A DNA stretch of 63,961 nt. Origin: an uncultured Candidatus Saccharibacteria bacterium. GTDB taxonomy: Bacteria; Patescibacteriota; Saccharimonadia; Saccharimonadales; AWTP1-31. The notes below the pieces were generated by a model. That model saw only the letters and a program-made list of their open reading frames with translations, ran no database searches and had not been told where the DNA came from. Every line of letters begins with the position of its first letter. The stretch's first letter is position 1. Of the stretch, positions 41,635 to 62,551 are shown piece after piece. Location: positions 1-63,961 of the forward strand of contig CAZWJA010000005.1 of NCBI GenBank assembly GCA_964634445.1, in the 5' to 3' direction. The translations under genes were made by a program, and so were the position numbers.

Positions 41635-42671
41635 ACGTCCCTCTCCGCTAATCCTGCAGCTACGCCAAAATGGTTGGATGCTGCTAGTAACTCACTTTGT
41701 CGATCTGCTGGAAATGATACGTTTCTCCAGGCATTTCCTATTTCTACGTTCAAACCGAACTTATTAGCTACATACAAAGGGAATTCTGGAAGAGCTGATG
41801 CTCCTCCAGTCATTATTATCCTATCGATCTTTAACACCGGATATCTTGCTTGGAAAAACTTGATTGATTTATCTATTTCGGTAACCAAAATATCAATCGT
41901 TCCGATAATCGCATTGTATATCTGGCCTTCCAGCTTATCTTTGCTCAAGCCGAATTTATTAACAAACTGCTGAGCTTGTTTTTCATCTATATTTAAATAT
42001 TGTACTGCAGCCCTAATAATTGCTTCACTTCCTGTAGGAATAGTTCGTGCAAGTCTTGGTGATCCATTAACGCTGACAACTAAGTCGGTTGCTCTGTTGC
42101 CGATGTCTATAACCATTTGCGGAACGGACGTACCAAATGGAATGACTGCACGAGACAGCGCCATATGGTCGGGCTCGAATGAAATAACGTTTAATCCGAT
42201 TGATTCAAGCATGTCAAGCCTTGATTCAATAAATTCATTAGATACACTAGACAAAAGTAATTCAAGCTTATTCTTGTCTTTAGGTGAATCTCCCAGAATT
42301 GCCCAGTCAATTTTCGATTCTGCTAACGGCGTAGGAATTAGTGAATCGGCTTGATACTGAATAGTCTTGCCTATTTCATCCTCGCTTAGCTTGTCTATGT
42401 CAATGACAGTAGTAAATACTCTTTGGGACGGTAATCCTACGGCAACATGCTTTGTAACTACTTTAGACTGGTCAATTAGATCCTTAATAGTCTTGGCTAG
42501 CTTCTGCTGGTCGCCTTTAGAATCGCTCACAGCGATATTATTCTCCAATGGAACATAGGCGTACTTTACTAATGCCTTGGATTTTCCAGCATTGTGAAGC
42601 TCTACCATCCTGACTGCTGTAGTACCGATATCAAGTCCGAAAAACTCTGATACGCCGCTAAGTATTCCCAT
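41631..42671 (-). CDS. pilM: PilM, actin-like ATPase of the pilus alignment complex
   Basis: 346 aa, FGLDIGTTAVRMVEL...IIMTGGASALPEF. Confidence 0.85.
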   Translation of the reverse strand: MGILSGVSEFFGLDIGTTAVRMVELHNAGKSKALVKYAYVPLENNIAVSDSKGDQQKLAKTIKDLIDQSKVVTKHVAVGLPSQRVFTTVIDIDKLSEDEIGKTIQYQADSLIPTPLAESKIDWAILGDSPKDKNKLELLLSSVSNEFIESRLDMLESIGLNVISFEPDHMALSRAVIPFGTSVPQMVIDIGNRATDLVVSVNGSPRLARTIPTGSEAIIRAAVQYLNIDEKQAQQFVNKFGLSKDKLEGQIYNAIIGTIDILVTEIDKSIKFFQARYPVLKIDRIIMTGGASALPEFPLYVANKFGLNVEIGNAWRNVSFPADRQSELLAASNHFGVAAGLAERDV

Positions 42672-42830
42672 TAGGTTAACCTCTTACCTTGGTCGAGAAT
42701 TTGATTGTATATATTTCTTTTTTTCATTTTGCCCACCTAAACCTTTATATGGTTCATAGTTACTTCAGATTATACCATAAGCGATTATAATTATGCCCTG
42801 TTTAAATTCAAAATTATTTTATTAATCTCC

Positions 42831-45119
42831 CTATAGAATTGGCGGCAGGACCGTATTGAAATAATTTCCGTTCAAATCATTTGGATCAGGATCGCCAATT
42901 GGCAAGCTTAAGTAAATTTCAGGGTTGAAGTTGAATACTTCGCCTGCACATACTGGCGCAGATCCATTAAGCGCTCCATTGCAAGCTCTGGCACCGTCAG
43001 AAGGATCCTCGCCGTTAGTAGCATTTCGGATAGATCCAAACGTCCTTAAGAGCTGGACGTGACGGGCTACAAACGAGCCGTTTACAACTAACTGTATCTT
43101 ACATGCATCAAATAAGTTCGCTTCATTACCGGCATAGACATTAGTGCCATTTGTACATGTATATATAACACCTCCGTTAGGCTGGGCAGCACTTGGCTGC
43201 GCGACATATACTCCGTCAAGATTTGGTACAGATTGGTCAATTTTAATATTCCTTGCAACGATTACCAAGCTAGGAATATCAGTACGACTGTTTCTTCTAT
43301 TACCCGGAGTGTCAGGTTCAAAGTTAATCGGCCCAGTAATTGTCAGAGTGCCGTTTACGAAAATCCTAACATGCCTGGCTTTCCTGACCATTCCACCAGT
43401 TATAGTCAAGTCGCCATTATGAATATAGTCGCCGGAAGCCGCATTTAATGACATAGGGTTGCTAGGTACAGGATCGCTCACGTCTGCTGAATCTGCAAAA
43501 TAGTCGTGAATACATTTCGAATTAGTAAATTGACCTAGTGGAGCTGTCTGATTAGAGAATGTCAGGCCGTTGCCGAATCTTGGTAAAGGTAAGGCTGCAC
43601 CTCTAGTCTTTAAACTTGCTGAGTTAAACTTGCTGATTTGTCCGAGCGCAAATGCCGCAAACTGTACTCCGCTACCGAATCCAGATGCATCGCTTGTATA
43701 CGTATCAATATTCCCAAGCTGGTTACAAGGAGAGGCTCCCGTGCGAAATCCACCTCCAGCTGAAATATCAGAACCGAAAACAGAGACGTATGGTTTATTC
43801 GCTACCGTAACGCATCTATTTGCAGTTGCATTTCCAGAACCGGTAACTATATTTCCCGATCCGTCCAAAGTTCCGCTTTGTGGTGTTGCCGTAATTACAA
43901 GACAAACAGTATCTCCTGCACTGAGTGGAGGAAAACTGAGTGAATCATTATAGTTCTCATTAGTATTTAATCTACCGCTGTAAGGAAACGAGTTTGTAGT
44001 GTTAGATCCTGACTTCGTAACGGTAATAGTCCTTGTAACATTAGGCGTAATACCGCCCCCGGGATTTATCCCTGTATACCCTCCACCGGTAGGATATGTA
44101 ATTCCAAGTGTAGATGCAGCATTTACACCAGTGGGGTTATCGTCACCCCCTGTGAGTGCTAAATTATTAATTCCTACACCCACCGTATATCTGTTACATG
44201 CCGAATCCCTTACCCATTGATGAGACTTATATGCATTAGAAGATTGTCCAGGACCAGCAATTCCATAAACATCCAATGTAGTACCTGGAGCAACAACTCC
44301 ATTTAGGTTTATGAATCCTGATTGTGCACTTCCAGTTCCACCAATAGGTGTGGGTCCAGGACCATATACATCTACTCTTGCCCCACTAGTACTTACGTTA
44401 ATACCATCACAACCTACATTATTAACAGTAAGCGTAGGTGCGTTTGGCGTAACATTAACCCAAAATGAAGCTGTTAGATTTACTGTGCTGCATGGTCCAA
44501 AATCTAATAGATTGACTGGATCTCTAGTACCACCACTTACGCATCCAAAACTGCCTGGAAACTGGTTAATCCTTTTGGCTGCAATGGTAAAAGTGTATGC
44601 ACCGCTCGTAGTAAAACCGCCCAAAGGTGCATAGTTAAAATCAACAAATCCACCTAAAGGACTAGCTCCTCTATAAGTACCGGGAACATTAGAATCTCCA
44701 GGCCCAGCACCTGAGGTATAATTTAAGCTCATGCCAGGAGGTAATCCGTTTACTCCAGGAGGAATAGTAGAAAATTGCAATGCCGTTTGCGAAACGGCAC
44801 TATTTGTAAAGCATACTGTTCCTGACCAGTTGAACCTTAATGGAACGCTAGTTGTACCATATGGCACAGTCTGAGCTGCTGGCACATCAACATTCGATGC
44901 TCCTGAATTAGAAAACCAGTAATTAAACTTTGGTGACTGACTACCGGCGTCACAGTTCTGGGCATCCCAATGAATTGAAAATGGTATGAAATTACCTACA
45001 TCCGGTGTTAAATTTAATAATGCATTTGCTTTAGGTGTGGCTATAATCTGAATAACAACGAAGGAGAATACGGTTAGTAGTGTTGATAATAAGATCCGTT
45101 TAAATTTTGTGTATTTCAT
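42831..45119 (-). CDS. Large secreted Gly/Asn/Thr/Ser-rich beta-rich protein (candidate pilus-associated adhesin)
   Basis: 762 aa with an N-terminal signal-like TM (LLSTLLTVFSFVVIQIIATPKANA). No pilin motif and no LPXTG. Many paired Cys. Encoded at the 5' end of the pilus gene block. Confidence 0.5.
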   Translation of the reverse strand: MKYTKFKRILLSTLLTVFSFVVIQIIATPKANALLNLTPDVGNFIPFSIHWDAQNCDAGSQSPKFNYWFSNSGASNVDVPAAQTVPYGTTSVPLRFNWSGTVCFTNSAVSQTALQFSTIPPGVNGLPPGMSLNYTSGAGPGDSNVPGTYRGASPLGGFVDFNYAPLGGFTTSGAYTFTIAAKRINQFPGSFGCVSGGTRDPVNLLDFGPCSTVNLTASFWVNVTPNAPTLTVNNVGCDGINVSTSGARVDVYGPGPTPIGGTGSAQSGFINLNGVVAPGTTLDVYGIAGPGQSSNAYKSHQWVRDSACNRYTVGVGINNLALTGGDDNPTGVNAASTLGITYPTGGGYTGINPGGGITPNVTRTITVTKSGSNTTNSFPYSGRLNTNENYNDSLSFPPLSAGDTVCLVITATPQSGTLDGSGNIVTGSGNATANRCVTVANKPYVSVFGSDISAGGGFRTGASPCNQLGNIDTYTSDASGFGSGVQFAAFALGQISKFNSASLKTRGAALPLPRFGNGLTFSNQTAPLGQFTNSKCIHDYFADSADVSDPVPSNPMSLNAASGDYIHNGDLTITGGMVRKARHVRIFVNGTLTITGPINFEPDTPGNRRNSRTDIPSLVIVARNIKIDQSVPNLDGVYVAQPSAAQPNGGVIYTCTNGTNVYAGNEANLFDACKIQLVVNGSFVARHVQLLRTFGSIRNATNGEDPSDGARACNGALNGSAPVCAGEVFNFNPEIYLSLPIGDPDPNDLNGNYFNTVLPPIL

Positions 45120-45130
45120 TTATATATCCA

Positions 45131-45667
45131 TTAGAAACTAATATTATTTTTTACTTTTTCAAGCTGCTCAACCCTGAATTTTAAATACTCAAGTGTTTTT
45201 ATTAATTCAGGGCTACTTTGAATAGGCTTCGCATATTTAGTATCTTTATTTGCTACCTTAACTAACTTGTCATAGTATTTACGCAAATTCTCTGCGTCAG
45301 ATGCTCGGTCAAAATAGAAAGTCATTACATATAAGCATGTAGGATCACTATCCACGTTCTTCATTGATTTCATTTTTAAGACTGTTTTTAATAAATTTGA
45401 GTTAGCGCTTGGATTCATAACATTAGCTGCTTCTGTGTAAATTGGGCTGTCGTCTTTGCCGTTACATTGCTTAGTGATATCTTTTTCATTTTTCTGCTGA
45501 ATAAATAGCACTCCACCAATTCCTAGAATACATATAATTACAAGAAGAATGAGTAGTATTTTTTTATGATTTCTAAGTTTTTTAAAAGATTTTGGCAACT
45601 TGAAATTTAAACTTTTTCGTTTTTTTACAGGATATACCGTGACTTTAGAGTCATTACCTTCGTCCAT
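45131..45667 (-). CDS. Hypothetical membrane-anchored protein
   Basis: 178 aa. Basic N-terminus, one TM (ILLILLVIICILGIGGVLFI), then a helical ectodomain. Confidence 0.5.
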   Translation of the reverse strand: MDEGNDSKVTVYPVKKRKSLNFKLPKSFKKLRNHKKILLILLVIICILGIGGVLFIQQKNEKDITKQCNGKDDSPIYTEAANVMNPSANSNLLKTVLKMKSMKNVDSDPTCLYVMTFYFDRASDAENLRKYYDKLVKVANKDTKYAKPIQSSPELIKTLEYLKFRVEQLEKVKNNISF

Positions 45668-45684: not shown

Positions 45685-45903
45685 ATGCTTGGACTTAATA
45701 ACAAGTCTGATTCATATATAAAATCATTTTTACTCCACCTCTGTTATACTATTACCCATGGGTTCACTTTCAATCGGTATTCACAAGACGCAACCATACC
45801 ATTCGATATAACGTTTTCGATGCCTCCACTAGATAAAAGAACTAGGGGCTACACGCCACAACAGATCAAAGAACTACAAGAAACGGTTGGTGGGCAGTGG
45901 TAA
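45685..45903 (+). CDS. Small conserved ORF embedded in repeat R1 (function unknown)
   Basis: The last 43 codons (45775-45903) align without gaps to 51516-51644. 14 codons differ, 12 of them synonymously, which indicates this frame is translated. The start is uncertain (ATG 45685 or ATG 45820). Confidence 0.45.
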   Translation: MLGLNNKSDSYIKSFLLHLCYTITHGFTFNRYSQDATIPFDITFSMPPLDKRTRGYTPQQIKELQETVGGQW

Positions 45904-46048
45904 AATGATAATATTCACCTGTCAAGTAAATTCGGTTCATCTTTTTTCTTTTTGTCAAACAGTGCAACGTCACGGAAATTTTTTTTCCAGAAATCAGGTC
46001 TAGTATTTCTACCCCACCATGCTCACCACTATATTTACACACCTAAAC
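45741..46048. repeat. Direct repeat R1 (~308 bp), left boundary of cassette 1
   Basis: Aligns with 51482-51776. It covers the mini-ORF, then TCGTTCAT-type and T-run motifs, then CTACCCCACCAYRCTCACCACTATATTTRCAC. It ends in CCTAAAC, which supplies the stop codon of the adjacent minus-strand gene. Confidence 0.85.
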
Positions 46049-46690
46049 TGTAAGCTCCATCTTTTTTTCAAGGAGCTCGGTGTCTATTAATATGCCTCGA
46101 TCCTTGAATGATACTAGCCCGTCCGCTTCCAGCCTATGTAACTCACGGCTGACTGTTTCTCTCGCAAGTCCACTCCGGGCAGCTAAAACAGACTGTCTTA
46201 TCTTTACGAAGCACTTATTATCATCTTGCTTAACACCAAAGCGATAGCTTTCTACCAATAACTCAAACGCTAGGCGGTTCGTGGCAACATTACGAGCCGT
46301 TATGACCAATCTCTTTAGTAATGCGTCAGTACCTCTGTACACTCGGCTCAATAAGTCGAAAAGCACGTCAGGATTGTTTTGTATAAACTCAACCGTCTCC
46401 TCAGCATCAGCACGCTTTAACTTAACGTCAGTAAGCGCAGCAAAAAAATAAGCGTTAGGTGTCTTATTTATTGCCCAAGACATTGGGAAAAATGCAGGCG
46501 GTCTAAATACATTGACGGTTATTTTATTGCCTTCGGGTGTAACATCATACTGCTCTACGACGCCCTCAAGCAGGAATGAGACGCCTTGAGGCTCTTGATT
46601 CGCAAACGTTAGGATTTTTCCCTTGGGGTACGATTCATTCTTGCTACTGCTGAAGTGCTTGTTCAATTTATCTAATAATTTCTCGTTCAT
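46043..46690 (-). CDS. Crp/Fnr-family transcriptional regulator
   Basis: 215 aa. N-terminal cNMP-binding-like beta-roll (ILTFANQEPQGVSFLLEGVVEQY) and a C-terminal HTH (RQSVLAARSGLARETVSRELHRLEADGLV). No Fnr-type Cys cluster. Confidence 0.8.
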   Translation of the reverse strand: MNEKLLDKLNKHFSSSKNESYPKGKILTFANQEPQGVSFLLEGVVEQYDVTPEGNKITVNVFRPPAFFPMSWAINKTPNAYFFAALTDVKLKRADAEETVEFIQNNPDVLFDLLSRVYRGTDALLKRLVITARNVATNRLAFELLVESYRFGVKQDDNKCFVKIRQSVLAARSGLARETVSRELHRLEADGLVSFKDRGILIDTELLEKKMELTV

Positions 46691-46755
46691 AACTTCAATT
46701 CTCTATACGGCATAAAAAGTTGATCACAGTCACATACTTATTCTATACGTATTGC

Positions 46756-46771
46756 TATCATGAACATGATA
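46756..46771. promoter_or_regulatory. Perfect 16-bp palindrome, candidate operator of the Crp-family regulator
   Basis: TATCATGAACATGATA (ATCAT-N4-ATGAT core, the same 5-4-5 geometry as Fnr/Crp-family sites). It lies in the divergent intergenic region between 46690 and 46823. Confidence 0.4.
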
Positions 46772-46822
46772 AATCCATAAACAAATGCAATTTATGACAA
46801 AACCTAATGAGAAATTTTATCT

Positions 46823-47314
46823 ATGAACCTCATGCTGATTAGTGGTATCGCCTGTTTTGTTATTGGTTGCCTGTTCTTCTGGGTATATCGCTTCGTTACC
46901 AATATCGTAAAGAGTGAACTAAGTGCTCAAAAGATATATTTCCCTGAACAAGGGAGTCCAGAATTTGACTCAACAGTATATCCCGATCTTCAGCAATATG
47001 CAGGTCAACTGGTCGATAACCCTAAGAAAGCTAGAGCGTATGCAGACGGCTTCATAGGACGACACTTGAAAAAGATTGCTAATGGCAAAACATATGCTGA
47101 ACTAAACGTTGCGTCAATGAAGAACCCTGATGACAAAAAGTTGCAACAGCAAAAGCAAGTATTATTTCAAGGTGAAGCTCTAAGAGGCTTATTACTCATG
47201 GGTGGTTACGGTTTTGGTACCATAGGCAGAGTAGCGGGTCTCGTATGCTACGCTACCTTTACAATAAGCTGTTTCTTCTTCCTTTTGTACATAATATTTT
47301 TAATAGAAACGTAG
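46823..47314 (+). CDS. Hypothetical membrane protein (TM at both ends)
   Basis: 163-aa ORF, first gene of the plus-strand cassette operon. Confidence 0.5.
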   Translation: MNLMLISGIACFVIGCLFFWVYRFVTNIVKSELSAQKIYFPEQGSPEFDSTVYPDLQQYAGQLVDNPKKARAYADGFIGRHLKKIANGKTYAELNVASMKNPDDKKLQQQKQVLFQGEALRGLLLMGGYGFGTIGRVAGLVCYATFTISCFFFLLYIIFLIET

Positions 47315-47321
47315 GCTTTCG

Positions 47322-47930
47322 ATGTCGCATACAAAACCACAATTAACCATTCAGAAAACATTACCTTACCTACTGATTGCGGTGGGTATTATAGGATTAA
47401 TCGCTTCATTTGTTCTGACATACGACAAGATACACGTCCTTACAGACAAAGGCTATGAACCGAGTTGCAATATAAATCCAATATTAAGTTGCGGCTCAGT
47501 GATGAAAACCGAACAAGCCAGCTTACTGGGTGTACCTAATACTGTTTTTGGGCTTATTGCCTTTAGCATGCTGCTTACTTTTGGTTTCTTATTAGCTGGC
47601 GGAGCAAAAGTCAAAAAGTGGGTTTGGATCGGTGCTCAACTAGCGGCCACTATTGGTGTGATATTTATGCACTACTTATTCTTTCAGGGCGTTTATAGGA
47701 TAAATGCAATCTGTCCTTGGTGCTCTGTCGTATGGATTATAACTATACCGACATTTTGGTATATAACGCTCTATAACTTGCGTGAACAAAATATAAATCT
47801 GCCAGCCAATATGTCTAAACTAAGCGCATTTGTTCAGAAACATCACGGAGATATACTTGTAGTGTGGTACCTTGTCCTACTTGGCATATTGTTGGAGCAT
47901 TTTTGGTATTACTGGTCAACTTTAATTTAA
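47322..47930 (+). CDS. Vitamin K epoxide reductase (VKOR) family thiol oxidoreductase
   Basis: 202 aa with 4-5 TM. Loop cysteines in CNINPILSC and the redox CxxC in AICPWCSVVW. Confidence 0.8.
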   Translation: MSHTKPQLTIQKTLPYLLIAVGIIGLIASFVLTYDKIHVLTDKGYEPSCNINPILSCGSVMKTEQASLLGVPNTVFGLIAFSMLLTFGFLLAGGAKVKKWVWIGAQLAATIGVIFMHYLFFQGVYRINAICPWCSVVWIITIPTFWYITLYNLREQNINLPANMSKLSAFVQKHHGDILVVWYLVLLGILLEHFWYYWSTLI

Positions 47931-47966
47931 TAGATAAGGGTTTCCTAATAGAGGTACAATTAGAGC

Positions 47967-49436
47967 ATGGAAGAATCGCTTCATCTACCAATAATCATAG
48001 TAATACTACACCTGGTCAACCTGTTCTGTCTTATATTGCTCATTCGGAGCGGTATACAAATACTCTTTGATCACCCCAAGCTGTATTGGACAGACGACAC
48101 TACCGATGATAACCATTGGTTGCGATTTGGCAAAAAAATAATGCCAAAGGATAAGCTTTGGACGTCTTTAGATGAAGCTGAAGACCCTGGAAAATTGGCG
48201 CTTCCTGGCGGTACGCATAATCTTGGTTCGGCACGGCATTGGCATTTCAGTATAGCTATCGTCTGGGTTGTCACGGGAATGATTTATATAGGATACATGC
48301 TTGTCAGTGGACAATGGCAGCGTCTTATTCCAACTGATGTTGGTGTCTTTTCTCGTGCCATTGATACGATGTATCAATATTTAACCCTGAATATTCCAGT
48401 AGAGGGGGCAACCTATAATGCACTACAGCAGCTCACCTATGCAGGTGTTGTCTTTGTACTGGCACCGCTTGCAATTATCACGGGGCTGGCACTTTCACCT
48501 GCGTTAGTTGCAAAATATCCAGGATTTCTAAAATTATTTGGTGGTCGCCGTCAAGTTGCACGAAGTCTGCATTTTATCGCCATGGTCCTGTTCTCACTTT
48601 TCATACTAGTACACGTAACAATGGCACTTGGTTTTCACTTCTACGACAGCGTCAAACGGATAACACTTGGCAGTACTGACGTTGACTTTGCCCTTGCCCT
48701 CACAATATTTCTAATGGCACTTACCTTGCTGGTAGCATTCAATATTTGGGCATCATTCTTCACGCTTGGTGATCAAGTGCGTTTACGACGTATCCTTACA
48801 AAGTTCTACACTCCTGTTGTGCGTTTACTATTTGGAAGGATGAAATCTGATCAACATTACACCAAAAAGGACATATCGCCATTCTTCCGAGTAAACGGTT
48901 ATCCTCCGAAGTCTGAAGAATATGCAGAGCTCAAAGCTAATAACTTCAAAAACTGGAAGCTAAAAATCTATGGTCTGGTAGAAAATCCCCTAGAGATGTC
49001 TCTCGATGACATTAAGGATTTACGGAAACAAGACCAAATCACCAAACATAACTGTATCCAAGGATGGACCGCCGTTGCAGAATGGGGCGGTTTGCCTATG
49101 CGAGATGTGGTCGAGATGTGCAAACCAAAAGCCAATGCAAAGTACGTGATTTTTTACTGTTATGACATTGACGATGAAGGAAATGCTTACTACTCTGGCC
49201 TACGACTGAGCGACATGTTCGATAAACAGACGATCTTAGCATACGAAATGAATGGAGAACCGTTACCGATTCAATACGGCGCACCACTTCGCTTGCGTTG
49301 CGAGAAGAAATACGGTTACAAGATGGCCAAGTACATACATTCTATAGAGTTCGTAGAGAGCTTCGCTCATATAGGTAAAGGACGAGGCGGTCACCGTGAG
49401 GACAATGTCTTCTTTGACTGGGAAGCTGCCGTATAA
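47967..49436 (+). CDS. Fusion of a b-type-cytochrome-like membrane domain with a YedY/MsrP-like (sulfite-oxidase-fold) molybdopterin domain
   Basis: 489 aa. The N-terminal ~280 aa are polytopic, with ARHWHFSIAIVWVVTGMIY and conserved His. The C-terminal part has ITKHNCIQGWTAVAEWGGLPMRDV (candidate Mo-ligand Cys in an xCxxGW context) and YEMNGEPLPIQYGAPLRLRCEKKYGYKMAKYIHSIEF. Confidence 0.65.
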   Translation: MEESLHLPIIIVILHLVNLFCLILLIRSGIQILFDHPKLYWTDDTTDDNHWLRFGKKIMPKDKLWTSLDEAEDPGKLALPGGTHNLGSARHWHFSIAIVWVVTGMIYIGYMLVSGQWQRLIPTDVGVFSRAIDTMYQYLTLNIPVEGATYNALQQLTYAGVVFVLAPLAIITGLALSPALVAKYPGFLKLFGGRRQVARSLHFIAMVLFSLFILVHVTMALGFHFYDSVKRITLGSTDVDFALALTIFLMALTLLVAFNIWASFFTLGDQVRLRRILTKFYTPVVRLLFGRMKSDQHYTKKDISPFFRVNGYPPKSEEYAELKANNFKNWKLKIYGLVENPLEMSLDDIKDLRKQDQITKHNCIQGWTAVAEWGGLPMRDVVEMCKPKANAKYVIFYCYDIDDEGNAYYSGLRLSDMFDKQTILAYEMNGEPLPIQYGAPLRLRCEKKYGYKMAKYIHSIEFVESFAHIGKGRGGHREDNVFFDWEAAV

Positions 49437-49439
49437 CGT

Positions 49440-50639
49440 ATGCCAAAACAAAAACCTGCAAAAACAATACATGGGGCATATTTTGCACTCGGAATAGCTA
49501 CCCTGGCGCTTATTGTGAACTTTTGGGCTTGGTCCCTGTTGAGTCCTTTAGGCGCAAAACTTGCCAGTGAGCTAACACTAACACCCGTAATGCTTTCGTT
49601 ATTGCTAGCGGTACCAGTTATCATTGGCTCTTTAGGTCGTATTGGATTCGGCATGTTGACGGATAAATTTGGCGGTAAAACTATGTTTGCGGCCATTTCT
49701 TTACTAACTGCAATCCCTGTTTTTGCCCTAACATTTGCTGACAACTACCAGCAGTTCGCTATAACTGCAATATTCCTTGGGCTGGGTGGCGCAGCTTTTG
49801 TTATTGGTATTCCATATATTAGTGCATGGTTTCCACCAGAGCGTAGAGGATTTGTTTTGGGCGTATATAGTATGGGCAATGCGGGCACGGCATTATCGGG
49901 ATTTGCTACGCCAAGACTAGCAGACAGCTTTGGTCGGGATACAACATTTATTATAGTAGCCTGTATATTGTCACTAGTGGCCGTGGTATTCATGTTCTGG
50001 GGAAAGAATGCACCAGGCTGGAAGCCAGCTAATGGCTCGTCGGTCACTCGGTTAGCTATAGCCGCTAGACTACGATTAACTTGGGATTTATCGTCAGTGT
50101 ATGCGATAACGTTTGGCGCTTTTGTGGCCTTTGGTGTCTATCTACCTGTGCTTCTGAAAGTTTCATATGGTTTATCTCTTACCGATGCCGCTGCACGTGC
50201 AGCTGGATTCATATTGCTTGCTACGATAGCACGGCCTATCGGTGGCTGGATGAGTGATAAAGTTGGTGCCAAGTATGTGACACAGCTGGCGCTTTGTGTT
50301 GTTATTCCCCTTGCAGCATTTGTAGCATTACAGCCTACACTAGAGCCACAGACGACAGTTGCATATCTGTCATTAGCATTTGTACTTGGCTGCGCCAATG
50401 GTGCGGTATTCGCTCTTGTCGGTAAGTTAGCAAAACCTGAGGTTATGGGCAGCGTAACGGGTATCGTAGGTGCTGCTGGAGGCTTTGGAGGCTTCTTGCC
50501 ACCGTTATTACTAGGGTTTACCTATCAACGTATGCATTCCTATGCTTTAGCATTAATCCTACTATCTGTTGCGGCGGCAATTTCTTTGGCATATATTCAT
50601 CGGCGGTTCAAAGATAAAAATCTGTATGGTGCGATCTGA
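49440..50639 (+). CDS. MFS transporter, nitrate/nitrite porter (NarK/NNP)-like
   Basis: 399 aa with 12 predicted TM, NFWAWSLLSPLG and GxxxDxxGG-type MFS motifs. Confidence 0.6.
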   Translation: MPKQKPAKTIHGAYFALGIATLALIVNFWAWSLLSPLGAKLASELTLTPVMLSLLLAVPVIIGSLGRIGFGMLTDKFGGKTMFAAISLLTAIPVFALTFADNYQQFAITAIFLGLGGAAFVIGIPYISAWFPPERRGFVLGVYSMGNAGTALSGFATPRLADSFGRDTTFIIVACILSLVAVVFMFWGKNAPGWKPANGSSVTRLAIAARLRLTWDLSSVYAITFGAFVAFGVYLPVLLKVSYGLSLTDAAARAAGFILLATIARPIGGWMSDKVGAKYVTQLALCVVIPLAAFVALQPTLEPQTTVAYLSLAFVLGCANGAVFALVGKLAKPEVMGSVTGIVGAAGGFGGFLPPLLLGFTYQRMHSYALALILLSVAAAISLAYIHRRFKDKNLYGAI

Positions 50640-50641
50640 CT

Positions 50642-51376
50642 ATGGAAGTACTAACGCCTCGTCATCTGGTACTTGTACGCCACGGAGAGAGTGAGGGTGA
50701 TGTGAGACGAAAACAAAAGTTGCCAGCACTAAAGCACCCTATACATGAGGAGCAAACCAAAGTAGGCCATGAACAGTCTCGTGCAGCTGGCTCATGGATA
50801 ACTAAACATATACTCGGGGCGTATGGCTTAAATGGATTCAACAAATATCTAGTCTCTCCTCTTATCAGGACAAGGCAATCTGCTAATTCACTTGATTTGT
50901 CAGATGTATGGGTTGAAGACCCACGATTAGCAGAAAGAAATAGGGGTGATATTCAAGGATTAACAAATAAGCAACATATAGAACGCTTTCCAAAGAGCTA
51001 TAAGCAAATGTCAGAACATCCATTCCATTGGGTGCCGCCACATGGCGAATCAATTCTTGCTGTCTCTCACAGATTTGGCGAATTGGTCAACGACGTAGTG
51101 AACACTAGCAACGTACTGATAATGACGCATCGCGATGTCATATGGGCGGCTCTAGTCCCGCTTGAGGGTATGAACCTCGAAGAGGTTGAATCAATAAACA
51201 CGGATATTATTAGTAATGGTCAGGTTGTACATTACACCAACGTCAACCCCTCAACGGGAGTAGCTGAGAGCTTAGAGATGATTTGGAAACGATCCGTAGA
51301 CCCTTCAGCAGTAAATATCTCTGTACAAAATATTGAATGGATAAACGTAAGTGACATACGTCAAAGCCAGGTTTAG
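50642..51376 (+). CDS. Histidine phosphatase superfamily (phosphoglycerate-mutase-like) protein
   Basis: 244 aa, LVLVRHGESEGD (RHG catalytic motif) and a later H in MTHRDVI. Confidence 0.7.
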   Translation: MEVLTPRHLVLVRHGESEGDVRRKQKLPALKHPIHEEQTKVGHEQSRAAGSWITKHILGAYGLNGFNKYLVSPLIRTRQSANSLDLSDVWVEDPRLAERNRGDIQGLTNKQHIERFPKSYKQMSEHPFHWVPPHGESILAVSHRFGELVNDVVNTSNVLIMTHRDVIWAALVPLEGMNLEEVESINTDIISNGQVVHYTNVNPSTGVAESLEMIWKRSVDPSAVNISVQNIEWINVSDIRQSQV

Positions 51377-51481
51377 GTTTTGTGACTTTGTAGATCGCCT
51401 GCTCTTAGTTAATACCCGTCATCATAACAACATTTTGTATCTTTTATCGCCCATACTCGTTCATTACACACACTAGGTTAT

Positions 51482-51776
51482 CTGTTACAATAACACCTAT
51501 GAGTTCGCTTCAAATAGGTATTCACAAGACGCAACCATACCATTTGAAATAACCTTCTCGATGCCACCATTAGATAAAAGAACTAGGGGTTATACCCCCC
51601 AACAGATTAAAGAATTACAAGAAGCAGTTGGTGGGCAGTGGTAAGTAATTAACCTACCGTAAGATAATTCGAATTTTCGTTCATCTTATTGTTTGGTATC
51701 AACAAGAGCAATGCTACAGAAATTTTTTTCTGAAATACTACCCCACCACACTCACCACTATATTTGCACCCTAAAC
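51482..51776. repeat. Direct repeat R2 (~295 bp), boundary between cassettes 1 and 2
   Basis: A copy of R1. The mini-ORF copy (51516-51644) is preceded by an in-frame TAG at 51474 and has no canonical upstream start other than the internal ATG at 51561. It ends by providing the TAG stop of the HEPN gene. Confidence 0.85.
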
Positions 51777-52481
51777 GATTAACCAGTCTGGCCTATTGTC
51801 ATGATCGTATCCAAATATGTTGGAGTGCCAAACTGGCGAGAGATTGAATGATAAATCACCCTGATCAAGTCCGAGAGTACGAATCAGCATATCTTGTATA
51901 AGCAATTCAAACACATGTGCAAGGTGTATCCTATTCTGCACGTCAGTATTTTGCTGATTTTTGTTAAACTCATAGTCTTCAAAAAATTGTCTAAGTCGTA
52001 CTGGGTCATTCTGATTTTTATAAGCTCCTAACACGCCCGTGATTGTACCTGTATGCATTACATCGTTACGCAGAATTCTAATAGCATGAGCCGTATCCGA
52101 TGGCATCTTCCATTTGTATATCTCCTCAAAAACCACTCGTAGCTTTTTATGAAATCCAGCCTCTGTGTCGAGGCTTATGCTGGAACTGGTGCTTGCGATA
52201 TTAAAGTAAAGTAACTCAAGAGCTTGAGCATGAAGGGATAATTTTATTTCAACCACGCTTTTTGTGGATATTCCGTAATAGATTGAGAAAACATGCGTCC
52301 TTTGCGGAAATGCAGATTGCCACTCTGATGTCTGTATCTTGCTCATGATCTTTTCAATGCAACTGTCGAAATGACCAGTCACATTTTTGCCACCAACAAT
52401 ATTTTCGACTAGGTATCTTACAAGAGCTTTATCTTGAGCTAAAGTGCTATCGCTCCACAAAATAGAATGATTGTTACTCAT
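51771..52481 (-). CDS. HEPN-domain protein (putative RNase), third gene of a three-gene operon
   Basis: 236 aa. AHAIRILRNDVMHTG contains R138-N-D-V-M-H143, i.e. the RNxxxH / Rx4-6H HEPN signature. The rest is predicted helical. Confidence 0.55.
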   Translation of the reverse strand: MSNNHSILWSDSTLAQDKALVRYLVENIVGGKNVTGHFDSCIEKIMSKIQTSEWQSAFPQRTHVFSIYYGISTKSVVEIKLSLHAQALELLYFNIASTSSSISLDTEAGFHKKLRVVFEEIYKWKMPSDTAHAIRILRNDVMHTGTITGVLGAYKNQNDPVRLRQFFEDYEFNKNQQNTDVQNRIHLAHVFELLIQDMLIRTLGLDQGDLSFNLSPVWHSNIFGYDHDNRPDWLIV

Positions 52482-52504
52482 AAAGTCTCAGTGTAGGTTT
52501 AAGA

Positions 52505-55060
52505 TTACGCAACAACGTTACGATACTCGGTATAGCCCTTTGCGACTAACTTATTCGCTAAGTCTAAAGCTAACTGTTTTATGGTGCTGTCATCTGAACT
52601 ATAAACAGTCTTGATAATAGCAGTCGTATTTTTACTCCAACTTGATACTGACCAGCGATCTCTCGTTCCGTCGACCATAGTAGATAATGCCTTGATGACT
52701 TCCTTGGAGTATTGATCGGCTATTGTTTCCATATACTCCAGTACAGCAAAGTCTAAATTAATGTTTCCAGCTTTTGAAGCAGCGTAGGTAAGCTGGTCCA
52801 AAGACCATTTCGGATCAAACTTGCCTGAAGCAAACCAAGTACCAAACTCCTCAAGTGCTTCAAGCTTTGTGGAATCGCTTTTCGTAAGTTCAACGATAGC
52901 TTTCCAAAGCTCGATAAGTTTCTTTATTTGAGCATCTTCAAATTCTGTCTCTTTGCTCTTATATAATCTAAAACCAATGAAATTAGCCAGCTCTTTTATG
53001 TACTTTGTGTCAGCGGTTTTCAGTAATGTATTCATGATCGATTCATCAGACAAATCTAAATCGGTATGCCAGTAATGTAATGCGAGGTGCTGTACGAAAT
53101 TCTTTAGCCCGTCGTGGCGTGCTTTACCGTCTTCGGTAGGCGGTGCTGCAAGCCGTGCTATCTGTCTCATAAAAACATCTCCTAGAACTTGCAATGCGTC
53201 TTCATGGACACGATTAAACATCACATAAGCGTCAAAGGCAGCATTGCCTAAACTATCATCAGAAAATATGGCATCTGTGTTCTTGGTAGCCCAATCTTTA
53301 TCCGTGCCGTATAAAAGCTCAAAACGCCAACCGTAGACTGAACGCATAGCTGGAACTGAATCATTGTCAGGGTTCAGGTGCCAATCAAGCTCGTCAAAAA
53401 TCAACTTATACTTATCCTTATCGATCTTATTCCTATTCATCCATGCCAATAAGTAAGCCAACGCATGCAGTGCTTTACCTCGATTTGAATTAATAGACAA
53501 ATCCGCTGGGTCAAAACTTGAAGTATCTTTGCCTGTTGGGTCTTCTGATCGGCACAGTAGAAGTATTAGCTTGGCGATAGCGTCAAAACTTTTAATAGTA
53601 ATTCGCTCCGTCTTATCTTCTTTTCTGCTTACCAGCTTTTCAATTAATCTGATCGCACTAGACTTAGACCACTCATAGTAGTTATGTCTTTCTTGCTCCT
53701 CATCTTCACTGCCAGCTTTATAGACCTCCGTCAGGTCTTCAAGTATCTTGACGACATTATCTTCGCTTAAATTGTCGGAAACCTCCTCGATAGCACGTAT
53801 AGTTTCATCAAGATATTCATTCTTGGTAGCTGCAACATCTTTAATTAGCAATGCAAAGCGATTAGGATCAACTTTGACCAGAAGTCCCAATTCCTTTGAA
53901 ATAGAATCACGCTCAAACGACCAACCCGATTCATCCTTATAGGTCTTTAGCTTTTCTATTAAGTCAGTGTCTGACAGGTCTTTTAGAACTTCCGTCGGAT
54001 TTTCAGTAACAAATCCAGATGTTACTTCACTGCCGCCACTTTTTTCATTTGCTAATATACGCTTAAGCTGTTCATCTTTACTTAGTGAATCGTAAAACGG
54101 CTTAAACGTTTTATTACTTTTATATTCACGCAGACCAAACTCTACTACACGTTTGAATATAGAGTATTTGTTGATAGCTAGTTCTTTGAGTTTCGCTAAT
54201 TTCTCCTCACCGCTAATCGACGAATCTTCCATCAGGGCTATCACACTATCACGCAATGCTGTGGTTAAAACATCTTCGGGGTCGTGGCTGTGATCATTGT
54301 CTTCGGCTATTTTTGGTCGCCAGATATATGATAGGTCATCTTTCTTTTCGCTAGGGTCTTCTTTTTCCTCATCGCCTTCCTCAAGCTTAAAGTGAGTGTA
54401 CTCGTAGCTAATAGCTTTTTGAAGCAACTCTGCGTACATATCTATCGTGCTCAATGGCGAAGCTTTTGCTAATGAGGGGGTTACCTTATCTACAATACTT
54501 TTATAATCATAGTCTCTGTATTTTGTGTCAGCCTTCATCATCACGTAGTCTGATTTAAGCTTTTCTTCTTTTTCGGGGTCGGGAGATACATCAAGCATTT
54601 CTTTTGCAAGTTCCAACGCAGAATCATATTGATTATTATCAGCTAACTTACAAATCAATTCTGAGACCGTTGTATGCAGCATGAGAAAACGAGATGTGTT
54701 GATGTATTTCTTTAGCTGATCAGTATATCTAGCTGCCTTACTTGGGCTTACTTTGAGCAATATGTTTGCCACATCATCCATTACACGTTCGTTATCGGTA
54801 TCTGGAAAAGCCTTGATAATTTTTAGCACCTCATTCTGTGCTTTGTCAGCAACTTTTAACAGATAGCCGCTTTCAGGCCACACAGGAAACTGTATGTAGC
54901 CATCCTTGCGTATGGCTGGTATCGGGTTCTTAAAGAAGCCCTTTTCTTTCAGTGGCAACAGCCAAGCAGGGTTATCTATTTTTTGGAAGAAATAGTTATA
55001 AGCGACTGGGGTCTTATTAATATTCTCCAGAGTCTTATTTATTAGGTCGTCAGAAATCAT
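52505..55060 (-). CDS. Large (851 aa) all-alpha repeat protein of unknown function
   Basis: No Walker, nuclease, protease or TM motif that I can see. It is a long series of amphipathic helices with acidic linkers (HEAT/ARM/TPR-like by composition). Its start overlaps the upstream gene stop (ATGA). Confidence 0.5.
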   Translation of the reverse strand: MISDDLINKTLENINKTPVAYNYFFQKIDNPAWLLPLKEKGFFKNPIPAIRKDGYIQFPVWPESGYLLKVADKAQNEVLKIIKAFPDTDNERVMDDVANILLKVSPSKAARYTDQLKKYINTSRFLMLHTTVSELICKLADNNQYDSALELAKEMLDVSPDPEKEEKLKSDYVMMKADTKYRDYDYKSIVDKVTPSLAKASPLSTIDMYAELLQKAISYEYTHFKLEEGDEEKEDPSEKKDDLSYIWRPKIAEDNDHSHDPEDVLTTALRDSVIALMEDSSISGEEKLAKLKELAINKYSIFKRVVEFGLREYKSNKTFKPFYDSLSKDEQLKRILANEKSGGSEVTSGFVTENPTEVLKDLSDTDLIEKLKTYKDESGWSFERDSISKELGLLVKVDPNRFALLIKDVAATKNEYLDETIRAIEEVSDNLSEDNVVKILEDLTEVYKAGSEDEEQERHNYYEWSKSSAIRLIEKLVSRKEDKTERITIKSFDAIAKLILLLCRSEDPTGKDTSSFDPADLSINSNRGKALHALAYLLAWMNRNKIDKDKYKLIFDELDWHLNPDNDSVPAMRSVYGWRFELLYGTDKDWATKNTDAIFSDDSLGNAAFDAYVMFNRVHEDALQVLGDVFMRQIARLAAPPTEDGKARHDGLKNFVQHLALHYWHTDLDLSDESIMNTLLKTADTKYIKELANFIGFRLYKSKETEFEDAQIKKLIELWKAIVELTKSDSTKLEALEEFGTWFASGKFDPKWSLDQLTYAASKAGNINLDFAVLEYMETIADQYSKEVIKALSTMVDGTRDRWSVSSWSKNTTAIIKTVYSSDDSTIKQLALDLANKLVAKGYTEYRNVVA

Positions 55061-55764
55061 ACGTTATCTCCCTCGGCGATAATACTATCCAACACATCAA
55101 GTGTGTCTATAGGTACAGAACGTTCTGGGTATTTTATGTCTAGAATGAAATCTTCTAAAGTAATAATCTTAGCCTTCAACTCCACTACTGTGGTTGTCTT
55201 CTGATGATGTGCCACGCCCTTGAAGAAATCATCTAACTCACCCCATAGCTTTAGCCGTTCTTTTGTAATAGCCTCTGGGATAGGTTGCCCAGACCCGTCA
55301 AGCGTTGTAAGCACGGCTTTGTGCTGTGCACTGCGTGGTCTATGTTCCGCAGAAAAAGTGGTAAAGAATTCCCCCATTGCTTTGAGCACCTTTTGGAAAG
55401 GGTTATCTACTGTACCAGACCAGTCTGAAGTGCTAATCGATTTCGTACCTTGTATTGCCGTCGTCCATTTTTCAGTAAGTGATATAACGGCACTCTTTAG
55501 CCCATTACCCTCTATCTTTACAGGGACTTCAACCATATAGTCATGTGCCTTTTCCATAAGTTCCCGCATAGAGTGGGCAACCTGTGCAAGCACATCGGGG
55601 TTCCCCGACAACTCAAGAGTAATCCATGCACCTCTTAACATATTTGCAAGGTCTTCTGAATTTTTAGAAAATAACTCAAGCAATCTAAGGGTTCGTGAGT
55701 CATAACTGACAGCACTTTGGGCACTTCGTTCATCCATCTCATTACCTTCAGCATCCATGCCCAT
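55057..55764 (-). CDS. Hypothetical helical protein, first gene of the three-gene operon
   Basis: 235 aa. VAHSMRELMEKAH could be a degenerate R-x6-H motif. Otherwise unrecognised. Confidence 0.45.
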   Translation of the reverse strand: MGMDAEGNEMDERSAQSAVSYDSRTLRLLELFSKNSEDLANMLRGAWITLELSGNPDVLAQVAHSMRELMEKAHDYMVEVPVKIEGNGLKSAVISLTEKWTTAIQGTKSISTSDWSGTVDNPFQKVLKAMGEFFTTFSAEHRPRSAQHKAVLTTLDGSGQPIPEAITKERLKLWGELDDFFKGVAHHQKTTTVVELKAKIITLEDFILDIKYPERSVPIDTLDVLDSIIAEGDNV

Positions 55765-55880
55765 ATTATGGCATAAAAACAGATAGGAAACAGATGAAGA
55801 CGTTATCCCCTCAACTTCCGTCCTAAAACACGTCCAACACGCTCCAAATGCGTCACAGAGGGTATACTATTACAGAGGTG

Positions 55881-55936
55881 TCGTTCATCTTTTGATGTCT
55901 GAATTTACTGAACAACCTTAGACAAATTTTTTTTGG
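55881..55936. repeat. Inter-cassette element copy C
   Basis: TCGTTCATC...(38 nt)...ACAAATTTTTTTTGG, with the same end motifs and spacing as copies at 45933, 51677 and 62496. It continues with AGCCTTAACGTCATTTT, which resembles copy D. Confidence 0.5.
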
Positions 55937-55983
55937 AACTTTTTAGCCTTAACGTCATTTTTTGCTTATGCAGCTCAGCCACC

Positions 55984-62373: not shown

Positions 62374-62495
62374 AGGCTAATTATAAACCATTTCCCCCTG
62401 TTTCTTTAGATTACAGTCTACTTGTCATCTTTCGCATAAAAACCTCCTCAACGACCCCTGGAAGCTCTCCAGAGCGTATTTGAATTGGTCAACAG

Positions 62496-62551
62496 TCGTT
62501 CATTAAAATTGCTAGGAATAATAGGGCGAACTGCTCACAGATTTTTTTTGG
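62496..62551. repeat. Inter-cassette element copy D
   Basis: TCGTTCATT...(38 nt)...CACAGATTTTTTTTGG, followed by ACCTTTAATGTCATTTTAGC, which resembles copy C. Confidence 0.45.

What the first reader, a model, noticed from the sequence alone, without database searches (positions are those of the whole stretch)
45741..51776. ~300-bp direct repeats flank a 5.4-kb gene cassette, and the embedded mini-ORF differs almost only at synonymous sites
45741-46048 and 51482-51776 are clearly homologous direct repeats.

Within them, 43 codons (45775-45903 versus 51516-51644) align without gaps. 14 codons differ, 12 synonymously; the two replacements are D/E and T/A. The two copies are therefore not a recent duplication. 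They are diverged alleles of a translated sequence: ...RYSQDATIPF(D/E)ITFSMPPLDKRTRGYTPQQIKELQE(T/A)VGGQW.

Copy 1 has upstream ATG or TTG starts. Copy 2 is cut off by an in-frame TAG 14 codons upstream of the aligned block, leaving only the internal ATG (27-aa peptide).

This is the pattern expected when an element integrates into the 3' end of a gene and brings its own version of that gene end. The repeats also end exactly in the stop codons (CTA on the plus strand) of the two flanking minus-strand genes.
Basis: seen in the sequence. Interest (0 to 1): 0.62.

Follow-up and report, generated by a model that had tools for sequence, protein, structure and literature searches.

The report
Serine-recombinase scars bounding a ychF island
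The two repeats are recombination scars: each joins the displaced start of the ychF gene to the detached tail end of a mobile element's recombinase gene, and together they mark a foreign gene block stacked inside an island in a Saccharibacteria genome.

Summary
45740-46048 and 51481-51776 are homologous direct repeats. Their 43-codon block differs at 14 codons, 12 synonymously (dN/dS 0.03, dS 0.69).

The block is not a free-standing mini-gene and not the 3' end of a host gene. It is the C-terminal tail of large serine recombinases (LSRs) whose attP lies inside their own 3' end.

The left 38 nt of each repeat are a ychF promoter plus the first ychF codons, so each repeat is an attL-type junction.

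In 7 same-family genomes the pilus locus abuts ychF with nothing inserted, and 2 others hold one LSR element there. In this genome ychF sits on another contig, fused to the only LSR gene.

Copy 1 is therefore the true left end of an island of at least 23 kb at the ychF start. Copy 2 is an internal junction. The 5.4-kb block between them is an LSR-less module, and its msrPQ-like gene cluster is horizontally spread.

The synonymous bias was probably inherited from full-length recombinase genes.

The same architecture lies on one contig in another Saccharibacteria family, and tail arrays occur in about 15% of genomes of the order.

How the cassette entered is inferred, not shown.

The parts
45740..46048 (+). 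Repeat copy 1: attL-type junction, the true left end of the island
   Evidence: The sequence to its left, and its first 38 nt, are homologous to the intergenic region and ychF promoter/start of same-family genomes with an empty site.
45740..45777 (+). B arm of copy 1: native ychF promoter (TG-extended -10, TGTTATACT, 45742-45750), 7-nt spacer, then ATG 45758 and the first ychF codons (M G S L S I G)
   Evidence: Empty-site relatives read ACCTCTGTTATAAT-N7-ATGAGTTCACTTTCnATyGG and then continue as ychF (IVGLPNVGKS).
45773..45781 (+). Shared core ATCGGTATT, where the ychF-type sequence changes to the recombinase-tail sequence. This is the inferred crossover region.
   Evidence: Comparison of attB in relatives, the LSR/ychF junction on C20, attP-type relics (L081) and attL units. 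The exact crossover dinucleotide was not determined.
45778..45903 (+). Detached LSR C-terminal tail, allele 1 (YSQDATIPFDITFSMPPLDKRTRGYTPQQIKELQETVGGQW, stop)
   Evidence: The same tail type ends full-length LSRs P0009 and P0013. It also follows an LSR 3' relic in L081. Omega is 0.03-0.06.
45904..46048 (+). Element-end sequence after the tail: about 107 nt holding an 8-T run, the 26-nt motif ACCCCACCATGCTCACCACTATATTT (46011-46036), then the junction with the cargo
   Evidence: In G300, G030 and other genomes the motif follows the tail stop directly.
46043..51376 (.). Cassette 1, the LSR-less cargo module: Crp/FNR regulator (-), 163-aa unknown, VKOR, cytochrome b561 fused to a molybdopterin oxidoreductase (MsrPQ-like), MFS transporter, histidine phosphatase (+)
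   Evidence: Pfam. The msrPQ-like gene is in 20 of 301 genomes of the order, in none of the own family, and at 96% amino-acid identity in another family.
51481..51776 (+). Repeat copy 2: internal junction. It consists of a ychF-type promoter/start arm (51481-51518, M S S L Q I G), the tail allele 2 (51519-51644), and the 3' region with the motif (51740-51765).
   Evidence: It matches the attL of C20-type LSR elements in G300 and G058.
51771..55764 (-). Cassette 2: a three-gene operon (236, 851 and 235 aa) with no confident Pfam family. It is further island cargo, not chromosomal flank.
   Evidence: It is absent from the pilM-ychF interval of all 11 same-family loci examined.
55860..55983 (+). 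Decayed third unit. It keeps the -10-like TATACTATTAC and the GTTCATC...AAATTTTTTTT part, and has lost the crossover region, the tail and the motif.
62480..62580 (+). Decayed fourth unit (80% identical to the third over 40 nt)
62741..63856 (.). Start of the element's core module: a 76-aa HTH protein (-), 60% identical to the HTH of the G300 and G058 elements, and a 263-aa protein (+). The module continues on contig C20 with a 109-aa protein, Toprim primase, HTH_17 excisionase-like protein, LSR and ychF.
   Evidence: The contig join is inferred from synteny and is not proven.
41631..45667 (-). Conserved chromosomal left flank: pilM, a 762-aa protein and a 178-aa protein
   Evidence: PilM_2. In relatives the same genes lie divergently next to ychF.

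Best explanation
The genome is a Saccharibacteria (CPR) genome of about 1 Mb. In this lineage a family of integrative elements (Toprim primase, HTH_17 excisionase-like protein, large serine recombinase) inserts into the first codons of the GTPase gene ychF.

Their attP lies inside the recombinase gene, about 41 codons before its stop.

Integration has two consequences:
- The recombinase loses its native tail and runs out of frame into ychF. Its 3' end supplies ychF with a new ATG and first codons.
- The displaced ychF promoter and first codons become fused to the detached tail at the far end of the element. That fusion is attL.

Each repeat in the window is such a fusion. Copy 1 carries the genome's own ychF promoter and is the left end of the whole island. 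Copy 2 is most simply the attL of the resident LSR element, which runs through cassettes 2 and 3 to the LSR next to ychF on contig C20.

Cassette 1, together with the tail of copy 1 and the promoter arm of copy 2, is a second module without an LSR. It was added by recombination at the same core, as in tandem accretion.

The synonymous-only divergence arose while the tails were parts of working recombinase genes. The tails are not expressed as peptides where they now lie.

Shown: homology, junction anatomy, empty sites, and the LSR/ychF fusion.
Inferred: the order of events, trans-mobilisation of cassette 1, the join of the two contigs, and any function of the tail.
For: 1. The tail is the in-frame C-terminus of LSR genes.
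- G055 (truncated LSR).
- G300 LSR of 603 aa.
- P0009 and P0013, 584 and 589 aa, ending in a tail of the window's type.
- A relic with an LSR 3' arm plus this tail (L081).

2. The only LSR in G000 (C20 10980-12659, Resolvase plus Recombinase domains) is conserved up to ..EQVGLNAKYW. It then overlaps the ychF start ATGCTAAGTATTGG|CATTGTCGG. Most close homologues (559-567 aa) end the same way, with frameshifted ychF read-through.

3. In 11 same-family genomes pilM and ychF are divergent neighbours 2.8-12.9 kb apart.
- Seven have no element (G012, G025, G010, G020, G011, G009, G018).
- G013 and G016 have one 7-8-kb element, bounded by an attL unit and by LSR-ychF.
- G023 and G008 carry only small relics.

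4. The left arm of copy 1 and its upstream flank align with the native ychF promoter region of these relatives.

5. G300 shows attL with this tail type and motif, then cargo, primase, xis and LSR over 10.4 kb. That LSR is fused to the tail of a resident G016-like element, which is an observed case of accretion.

6. G058 shows the whole architecture on one contig: unit, cassette, unit, 14 kb of cargo, HTH, xis, LSR (89% identical), ychF.

7. Of 61 units classified, at least 38 have a promoter/ATG left arm and about 7 have an LSR-3' left arm.

8. Omega is 0.03-0.06, and the other frames are closed.
Against: - No excised circle or empty-site read was observed.
- C5 and C20 are not joined in the assembly. 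C5 ends in a 54-nt sequence shared by four contig ends, and C20 in a 55-nt sequence shared by three. Adjacency therefore rests on synteny with G300 and G058.
- Canonical LSRs recombine only attP with attB. Stacking needs attP-like sites to recombine with attL-like units. This is seen as an outcome in G300 and L139, but the mechanism is unexplained.
- The promoter-type left arm of the internal copy 2 is not predicted by simple accretion of LSR-bearing elements. It needs an LSR-less module that carries such an arm.
- Elsewhere the msrPQ-like cluster is not flanked by tail units.
- Dyad symmetry of the inferred att sites is weak, 14 of 24.
Confidence: 0.82

Rival explanations
1. The block is a free-standing translated small gene, or the 3' end of a host gene. 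It was duplicated because an element integrated into that gene's 3' end and brought a replacement end. Purifying selection acts on the peptide where it now lies.
For: There is a strong synonymous bias. Copy 1 has upstream in-frame ATG and TTG codons.
Against: - Copy 2 is closed by a TAG 14 codons upstream.
- No start codon is conserved in that frame across 61 units. What is conserved upstream is a -10 box plus an ATG in the ychF frame.
- About 10 of 68 related tails have internal stops.
- The same sequence is the in-frame end of 584-603-aa recombinases.
- No larger host gene precedes any unit.
Confidence: 0.04
2. Decay model. Every unit is the attL of a once-complete LSR element. The cassettes are what remains after each element lost its primase-xis-LSR module by deletion. 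No LSR-less module was ever mobile.
For: Decay does occur.
- L081 and others keep only about 28 codons of LSR 3' end before the tail.
- G008 keeps an LSR-arm scar before ychF with no LSR.
- G058 has lost the primase.
- Units 3 and 4 in the window are eroded.
Against: - Deletion of an LSR leaves an LSR-type left arm. Copy 2, and the internal units of G058, G161 and G030, instead have promoter/ATG arms of differing ychF alleles.
- G161 has three units, each followed by a single toxin-antitoxin pair and then an intact promoter-bearing ychF. This would need three equally precise decays.
Confidence: 0.2
3. Cassette 1 entered by homologous recombination, for example after natural transformation. The about 300-bp units, or longer island flanks, served as homology arms. 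The LSR played no part in this particular step.
For: - The units are 72-85% identical over about 300 bp and are shared across families at up to 91%.
- The msrPQ-like cluster moves between families without tail units elsewhere.
Against: - 85% identity over 160 nt is a poor substrate for homologous exchange.
- The left boundary of homology falls exactly at the -10 box in both copies, and the switch point at the same core as in site-specific junctions.
- The same unit-cassette-unit layout recurs in many genomes with unrelated cargo.
Confidence: 0.15

Closest known systems
SCC / SCCmec composite islands of staphylococci (CcrAB/CcrC large serine recombinases at orfX/rlmH). Cited from general knowledge; also named as closest known in earlier notes of this scan.
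   Same: - LSR-driven insertion at one fixed end of a conserved housekeeping gene.
- Tandem stacking of modules separated by direct-repeat integration-site sequences.
- Recombinase-less modules sit beside one recombinase-bearing module.
- Cargo is accessory genes.
   Different: - The target here is the 5' end and promoter of ychF, not the 3' end of rlmH.
- attP lies inside the recombinase's own coding sequence, so each junction carries about 41 codons of recombinase tail. The repeats are about 300 bp rather than about 15-20 bp.
- The element must supply ychF with a new start codon.
- The hosts are CPR bacteria.
Integration-dependent immunity of mycobacteriophages BPs, Brujita and Charlie (Broussard & Hatfull 2013, PMC3694055)
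   Same: attP lies within a coding sequence, so the free and integrated forms of the element encode proteins with different C-termini. Integration itself switches the gene product.
   Different: - There the gene is the repressor, the recombinase is a tyrosine integrase, and the removed tail is a proteolysis tag with a shown function.
- Here the gene is the serine recombinase itself, and the function of the tail is unknown. It does not look like an ssrA-type tag.
dusA-specific integrases and their islands (Farrugia et al. 2015, PMC4482086)
   Same: Diverse islands share one target in the 5' end of a conserved housekeeping gene, and the integrase is the only common feature. A section heading of the paper suggests that integration may restore the gene's function (abstract and outline only).
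   Different: - These are tyrosine recombinases in Proteobacteria.
- No recombinase tail is exchanged.
- The abstract reports no stacked recombinase-less modules.
Tandem accretion of ICEs and cis-mobilisable elements (CIMEs) at the fda locus of Streptococcus thermophilus (general knowledge; not checked in the library)
   Same: An incoming element recombines with an att site flanking a resident element. This gives composite islands with internal att sites and integrase-less modules that can be mobilised in cis.
   Different: - Those systems use a tyrosine integrase with identical core repeats and a 3'-end target.
- Here the junction units are hybrids of a promoter arm and a coding tail.
Integron cassette arrays
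   Same: - Arrays of small, promoter-poor cassettes, often toxin-antitoxin pairs as in G161.
- Cassettes are separated by a repeated recombination unit next to one fixed site.
   Different: - There is no IntI tyrosine recombinase, no attI and no attC hairpin.
- The repeated unit is a gene start fused to a recombinase tail.
- This is not an integron.

Membership tests
Large serine recombinase (serine integrase) integrative element | Recombinase with an N-terminal resolvase catalytic domain, a recombinase domain and a zinc ribbon | tested here: met
   The G000 C20 LSR has Resolvase (1.3e-27) and Recombinase (1.6e-18). Its 86%-identical G300 homologue also has Zn_ribbon_recom, weakly (1.5e-4, below the Pfam cut-off).
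Large serine recombinase (serine integrase) integrative element | Hybrid attL/attR junctions around a short common core, with an uninterrupted attB in related genomes | tested here: met
   Seven same-family genomes have an intact promoter-ychF next to the pilus genes. attL (copy 1) and attR (LSR/ychF on C20) switch sequence at ATyGG|yAT.
Large serine recombinase (serine integrase) integrative element | att sites of about 40-50 bp with imperfect dyad symmetry around a central dinucleotide | tested here: inconclusive
   The best dyad in the reconstructed attP is 14 of 24, centred about 5 nt from the junction. attB is weaker.
Large serine recombinase (serine integrase) integrative element | Excision to a circular form with a recombination directionality factor | not testable with these tools
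   An HTH_17 protein is encoded just upstream of the LSR, but its role is untested.
SCC-like / accretion-type composite island | Several modules in tandem at one anchor, separated by direct copies of the integration site, with recombinase-less modules | tested here: met
   The window has two full units and two decayed units with one LSR in the genome. G058 has the same layout on one contig. Arrays occur in about 15 of the 47 genomes of the order that have tail hits.
SCC-like / accretion-type composite island | Recombinase-less modules are mobilised in trans by the recombinase | not tested
   This rests only on inference from the junction anatomy (promoter-type arms of differing ychF alleles).
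Integron | IntI tyrosine recombinase, attI, attC sites | tested here: not met
   The only recombinase at the locus is an LSR. The units are a promoter/ATG plus a coding tail, not attC-type palindromes.
Free-standing small protein gene | A conserved start codon and open frame in all copies, under selection as an independent unit | tested here: not met
   A TAG closes copy 2. There is no conserved in-frame start. About 10 of 68 related tails have stops. The sequence is the end of LSR genes.
Integration-dependent gene-end switch | attP inside a coding sequence, so that the free and integrated forms encode different C-termini | tested here: met
   Tail-bearing LSRs of 584-603 aa contrast with integrated LSRs of 559-567 aa that end in frameshifted ychF sequence.
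Integration-dependent gene-end switch | The removed tail has a regulatory function (stability, activity or directionality) | not testable with these tools
   Only purifying selection is shown (omega 0.06). The AlphaFold model is uninformative for the tail (pLDDT below 50).

The most novel reading that the evidence does not exclude
Integration rewrites the recombinase. The free form of these Saccharibacteria elements encodes an LSR with a conserved tail of about 41 aa. Insertion into the ychF start detaches that tail and parks it, fused to the displaced ychF promoter, at the other end of the element. This would give the enzyme a built-in sensor of its own integration state, acting on directionality or stability. 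The parked promoter-plus-tail units would then serve as portable landing pads. LSR-bearing elements and small LSR-less cassettes could recombine with them, making the ychF start an SCC- or integron-like gene-capture platform in a phylum with minimal genomes.
Probability: 0.35. Interest if true: 0.8.

Novelty: new variant of a known kind. Interest (0 to 1): 0.6.

Why it matters
Saccharibacteria have genomes of about 1 Mb and depend on host bacteria, and little is known about how they gain genes. This locus shows a concrete route: a fixed hotspot at the start of ychF where serine-recombinase elements and smaller modules stack.

The cargo here includes:
- a redox and repair gene set (VKOR, an MsrPQ-like fusion, a transporter);
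- cation-efflux genes in the third block;
- an unknown three-gene operon.

The recombinase gene spans its own attachment site, so integration changes the enzyme. If the detached tail controls activity or direction, this would be a new and simple way to make a serine integrase state-dependent. That would interest people who build recombinase tools.

The work also gives a caution for small-ORF discovery. A clean synonymous-substitution signature can be inherited from a larger gene that is no longer attached.

Tried and rejected
- Rfam scan of 44000-53500 at E up to 1: no RNA family, so a structured RNA does not explain the conservation.
- tRNA scan: no tRNA lies at or near the repeats, so this is not a tRNA-end duplication.
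- The 23-nt motif as a tRNA-like 3' end: rejected. On C20 and in G300 it is the reverse complement of the primase C-terminal codons YSGEHGG.
- Exact look-up of the 178-aa flank protein, to find strain variants with another array content: not on record.
- Suffix-prefix overlap of the C5 and C20 ends: none. The ends are multicopy repeat nodes.
- AlphaFold2 of a tail-bearing LSR (P0013) with a 30-row alignment: mean pLDDT 57.9, tail below 50. No structural clue to tail function, so no fold search was run.
- Dyad-symmetry search of the inferred att sites: weak, not decisive.
- Consensus promoter and terminator scans: counts are not above shuffles. Only copy 2's TG-extended -10 was picked up.
- Search for tail units around the msrPQ-like cluster in seven other genomes: none. 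Cassette 1 is therefore not demonstrably a dedicated unit-bearing cassette elsewhere.
- Literature searches (Saccharibacteria + serine recombinase + integrative; ychF + integration site + serine recombinase; attP within the integrase gene; Saccharibacteria + mobile genetic elements + integrase + genomic island): no description of this system was found.

Full report
**1. The observation**

The two repeats are real. 45740-45903 and 51481-51644 align without gaps at 85% identity. The following roughly 140 nt align at 72-75% with one 15-nt indel.

Twelve are synonymous and two are replacements (D/E, T/A), and nucleotide changes fall 4/0/11 on codon positions 1/2/3. Nei-Gojobori estimates are dS 0.69, dN 0.021 and omega 0.03. 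None of 20,000 random placements of the same number of changes gave so few replacements, and the other five frames are closed by stops.

The copies are therefore old alleles of a sequence that evolved as coding DNA. No Rfam family and no tRNA explains them. The genome holds exactly these two copies, plus one 23-nt piece on contig C20.

**2. What the coding block is**

The genome is about 0.98 Mb in 30 contigs, and its relatives are 0.7-1.6 Mb. Named records with the same sequence are almost all Candidatus Saccharibacteria or Saccharimonadales.

A search of relatives with the peptide found near-identical copies in other families (91%, 85%, 81%). It also found many weaker relatives. One of these is the last 45 residues of a long open frame typical of a large serine recombinase (LSR).

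A profile search of 301 genomes of the order gave 68 hits in 47 genomes. Nearly all lie in short open frames, about 10 have internal stops, and two form the C-terminus of LSR genes.

One of those is a 603-aa LSR in G300. It ends a 10.4-kb element comprising cargo, a Toprim primase, an HTH_17 protein and the LSR. The other end of that element carries a stand-alone tail of exactly the window's type, followed by the motif ACCCACCACACTCACCACTATATTT.

Metagenomic proteins P0009 (584 aa) and P0013 (589 aa) are full-length LSRs ending in this tail type. In contrast, 20 close homologues of 559-567 aa stop a few residues after the conserved ..VGLNAK(Y/H)W.

**3. Where these elements integrate**

G000 has one LSR (C20 10980-12659, minus strand), 86% identical to the G300 enzyme. 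It is conserved up to ..EQVGLNAKYW and then overlaps the start of ychF by 32 nt. The LSR's last codons supply ychF's ATG: ATGCTAAGTATTGG|CATTGTCGG.... The short ends of the 559-567-aa homologues are ychF's first codons read out of frame.

In the same family, pilM and ychF are divergent neighbours on one contig in 11 genomes.
- Seven have no element between them.
- G013 and G016 have one 7-8-kb element, bounded by a tail unit on the pilus side and by xis-LSR-ychF on the other.
- G023 and G008 have small relics.

In the empty sites the sequence reads ACCTCTGTTATAAT-N7-ATGAGTTCACTTTCnATyGG|TATTGTnGG..., which encodes MSSLSIG|IVGLPNVGKS. The left 38 nt of copy 1, and the roughly 70 nt upstream of it, are homologous to exactly this region.

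So copy 1 is the native ychF promoter and first six codons, fused at the core ATCGGTATT to a recombinase tail. That is an attL. The matching attR is the LSR/ychF fusion on C20.

**4. The island in this genome**

Nothing to the right of copy 1 in the window (cassette 1, the 236/851/235-aa operon, the cation-efflux and oxidase block) is present in the pilM-ychF interval of any relative examined.

The window ends with a 76-aa HTH gene, 60% identical to the one in the G300 and G058 elements, followed by a 263-aa gene. C20, read in reverse, begins with the next genes of that element: a p95-like protein, primase, xis, LSR and ychF.

The assembly does not join the two contigs. C5 ends in 54 nt shared by four contig ends, and C20 in 55 nt shared by three. 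The two sequences are imperfect reverse complements, as expected for the ends of a multicopy insertion sequence missing from the bin. Adjacency is therefore inferred.

It is strongly supported by G058, from another family. There one contig carries unit A, a hydrolase, unit B (promoter arm, the window's tail type, motif), 14 kb of cargo, the HTH, p95, xis, an LSR 89% identical to G000's, and ychF.

By analogy:
- copy 2 is the attL of the resident LSR element, about 17 kb long;
- copy 1 plus cassette 1 is an extra LSR-less module on its outer side;
- two further, eroded units at 55860-55983 and 62480-62580 split the remaining cargo.

**5. How stacking happens (inference)**

G300's LSR is fused to a tail of a second subfamily. 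The genes that follow it are those that sit next to the attL of the G016 element (88-91% identical). So the G300 element integrated into the attL of a resident element. L139 shows the same kind of event with a third LSR type. Units can therefore act as targets.

The internal units of G000, G058, G030 and G161 have promoter/ATG left arms, not LSR 3' ends. Those arms represent different ychF alleles. In G161, three units each precede one toxin-antitoxin pair, and an intact promoter-bearing ychF follows.

The simplest reading is as follows. Modules consisting of tail, cargo and promoter arm can be cut out and inserted by recombination between units, at the same core that the LSR uses. I could not test this.

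Two alternatives remain open: decay of complete elements, or entry by homologous recombination. They fit the promoter-type arms and the fixed boundaries less well.

The msrPQ-like cluster of cassette 1 is clearly horizontally spread. It is present in 20 of 301 genomes of the order, in none of the own family, and at 96% amino-acid identity in another family. Elsewhere, however, it is not flanked by units.

**6. Why the changes are synonymous**

The tail is encoded downstream of the crossover. It is part of the recombinase only in the free (attP) configuration, or after integration into another unit. Across 15 alleles of this tail type, omega is about 0.06 over 41 codons. That stretch is far longer than a 20-25-bp half-site, so selection was on the protein.

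In the stand-alone units nothing suggests translation. The only conserved ATG is ychF's, in another frame, and it gives a 17-codon reading (45758-45811 and 51499-51552). Copy 2's tail frame is closed upstream by TAG.

The signature was therefore most likely inherited from full-length genes. Tail swapping at each recombination would keep the parked copies young.

The function of the tail is unknown. An AlphaFold model was too poor to help.

**7. Comparison with known systems**

The closest overall analogue is the SCC/SCCmec type of composite island. It shares an LSR, one anchor gene, stacked modules separated by integration-site repeats, and recombinase-less partners.

Two features differ here: the 5'-end target and attP inside the recombinase gene. 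The second feature resembles the integration-dependent immunity of mycobacteriophages, where attP lies inside the repressor gene and integration removes a C-terminal degradation tag (PMC3694055). Islands that target the 5' end of dusA are a tyrosine-recombinase parallel for the choice of target (PMC4482086).

It is not an integron, because there is no IntI and no attC.

Four full-text searches found no description of this system. Earlier AI notes of this scan describe like arrangements in other Saccharibacteria genomes. I saw them after forming my reading, and I treat them as leads only.

**8. Verdict**

- The thing is a new variant of a known kind: an LSR-built composite island with tail-carrying junctions.
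- Confidence in the identity of the repeats is high. Confidence in how cassette 1 arrived is moderate to low.

Noticed in passing
window 46011-46036 and 51740-51765; G000 C20 13037-13059; L056 (G300) 3232 and 11246-11266: The 21-26-nt motif after the tail recurs in inverted orientation as the last codons (YSGEHGG) of the element's primase gene. In the circular form, inverted copies would bracket the xis-LSR-attP module. Its function is unknown; it could be a binding site or a module-exchange point.
   Followed up: partly
G000 C20 about 11000-11120 (LSR 3' end); P0009 / L139 11560-11760: C20-type LSRs carry two tandem arm-like stretches (NKVGLDVEH and EQVGLNAKYW). The 3' end of P0009 is a chimera: its own arm (..KVKYEPNN) is joined to SDTRDTT..VGLDAKHW plus the tail. 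Recombinase 3' ends seem to be built up from nested older junctions.
   Followed up: partly
window 63908-63961 (C5 end); G000 C20 15615-15669; ends of C1, C18, C28, C9, C14: Seven contig ends share one of two 54-55-nt sequences. The two sequences are imperfect reverse complements of each other. This probably marks the terminal inverted repeats of a multicopy insertion sequence whose interior is missing from the bin.
   Followed up: partly
L059 (G161:C20) 3560-6450: Three tail units each precede one type II toxin-antitoxin pair (YafQ/ParE-like; PIN with Phd; PIN with MazE). They lie directly upstream of an intact ychF, with no recombinase nearby.
   Followed up: partly
window 47967-51376; L132 (G300:C3) 3467-6844: The msrPQ-like fusion, MFS and histidine phosphatase cluster is 83% identical in DNA to a genome of another family, and its MsrPQ-like protein is 96% identical. 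It is absent from all 25 same-family genomes searched for it.
   Followed up: partly
window 51771-55764: The three-gene operon (236, 851 and 235 aa) has no Pfam family, apart from a weak pPIWI-associated nuclease hit in the 235-aa protein (E 1e-3, below the cut-off). As island cargo it is a candidate defence module.
   Followed up: no
L067 (G008:C4), just upstream of ychF: ychF starts with an LSR-arm-type sequence (..GAACAGGTTACATGCTAAGTATTGG) although no LSR is left. This is a scar showing that ychF can keep the element-supplied start after the element is lost.
   Followed up: no
window 45758-45811 and 51499-51552: In both units the displaced ychF promoter and ATG open a 17-codon frame (MGSLSIGIHKTQPYHSI / MSSLQIGIHKTQPYHLK) that ends at the same TAA. 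If the promoter still fires, this would be a leaderless transcript.
   Followed up: no
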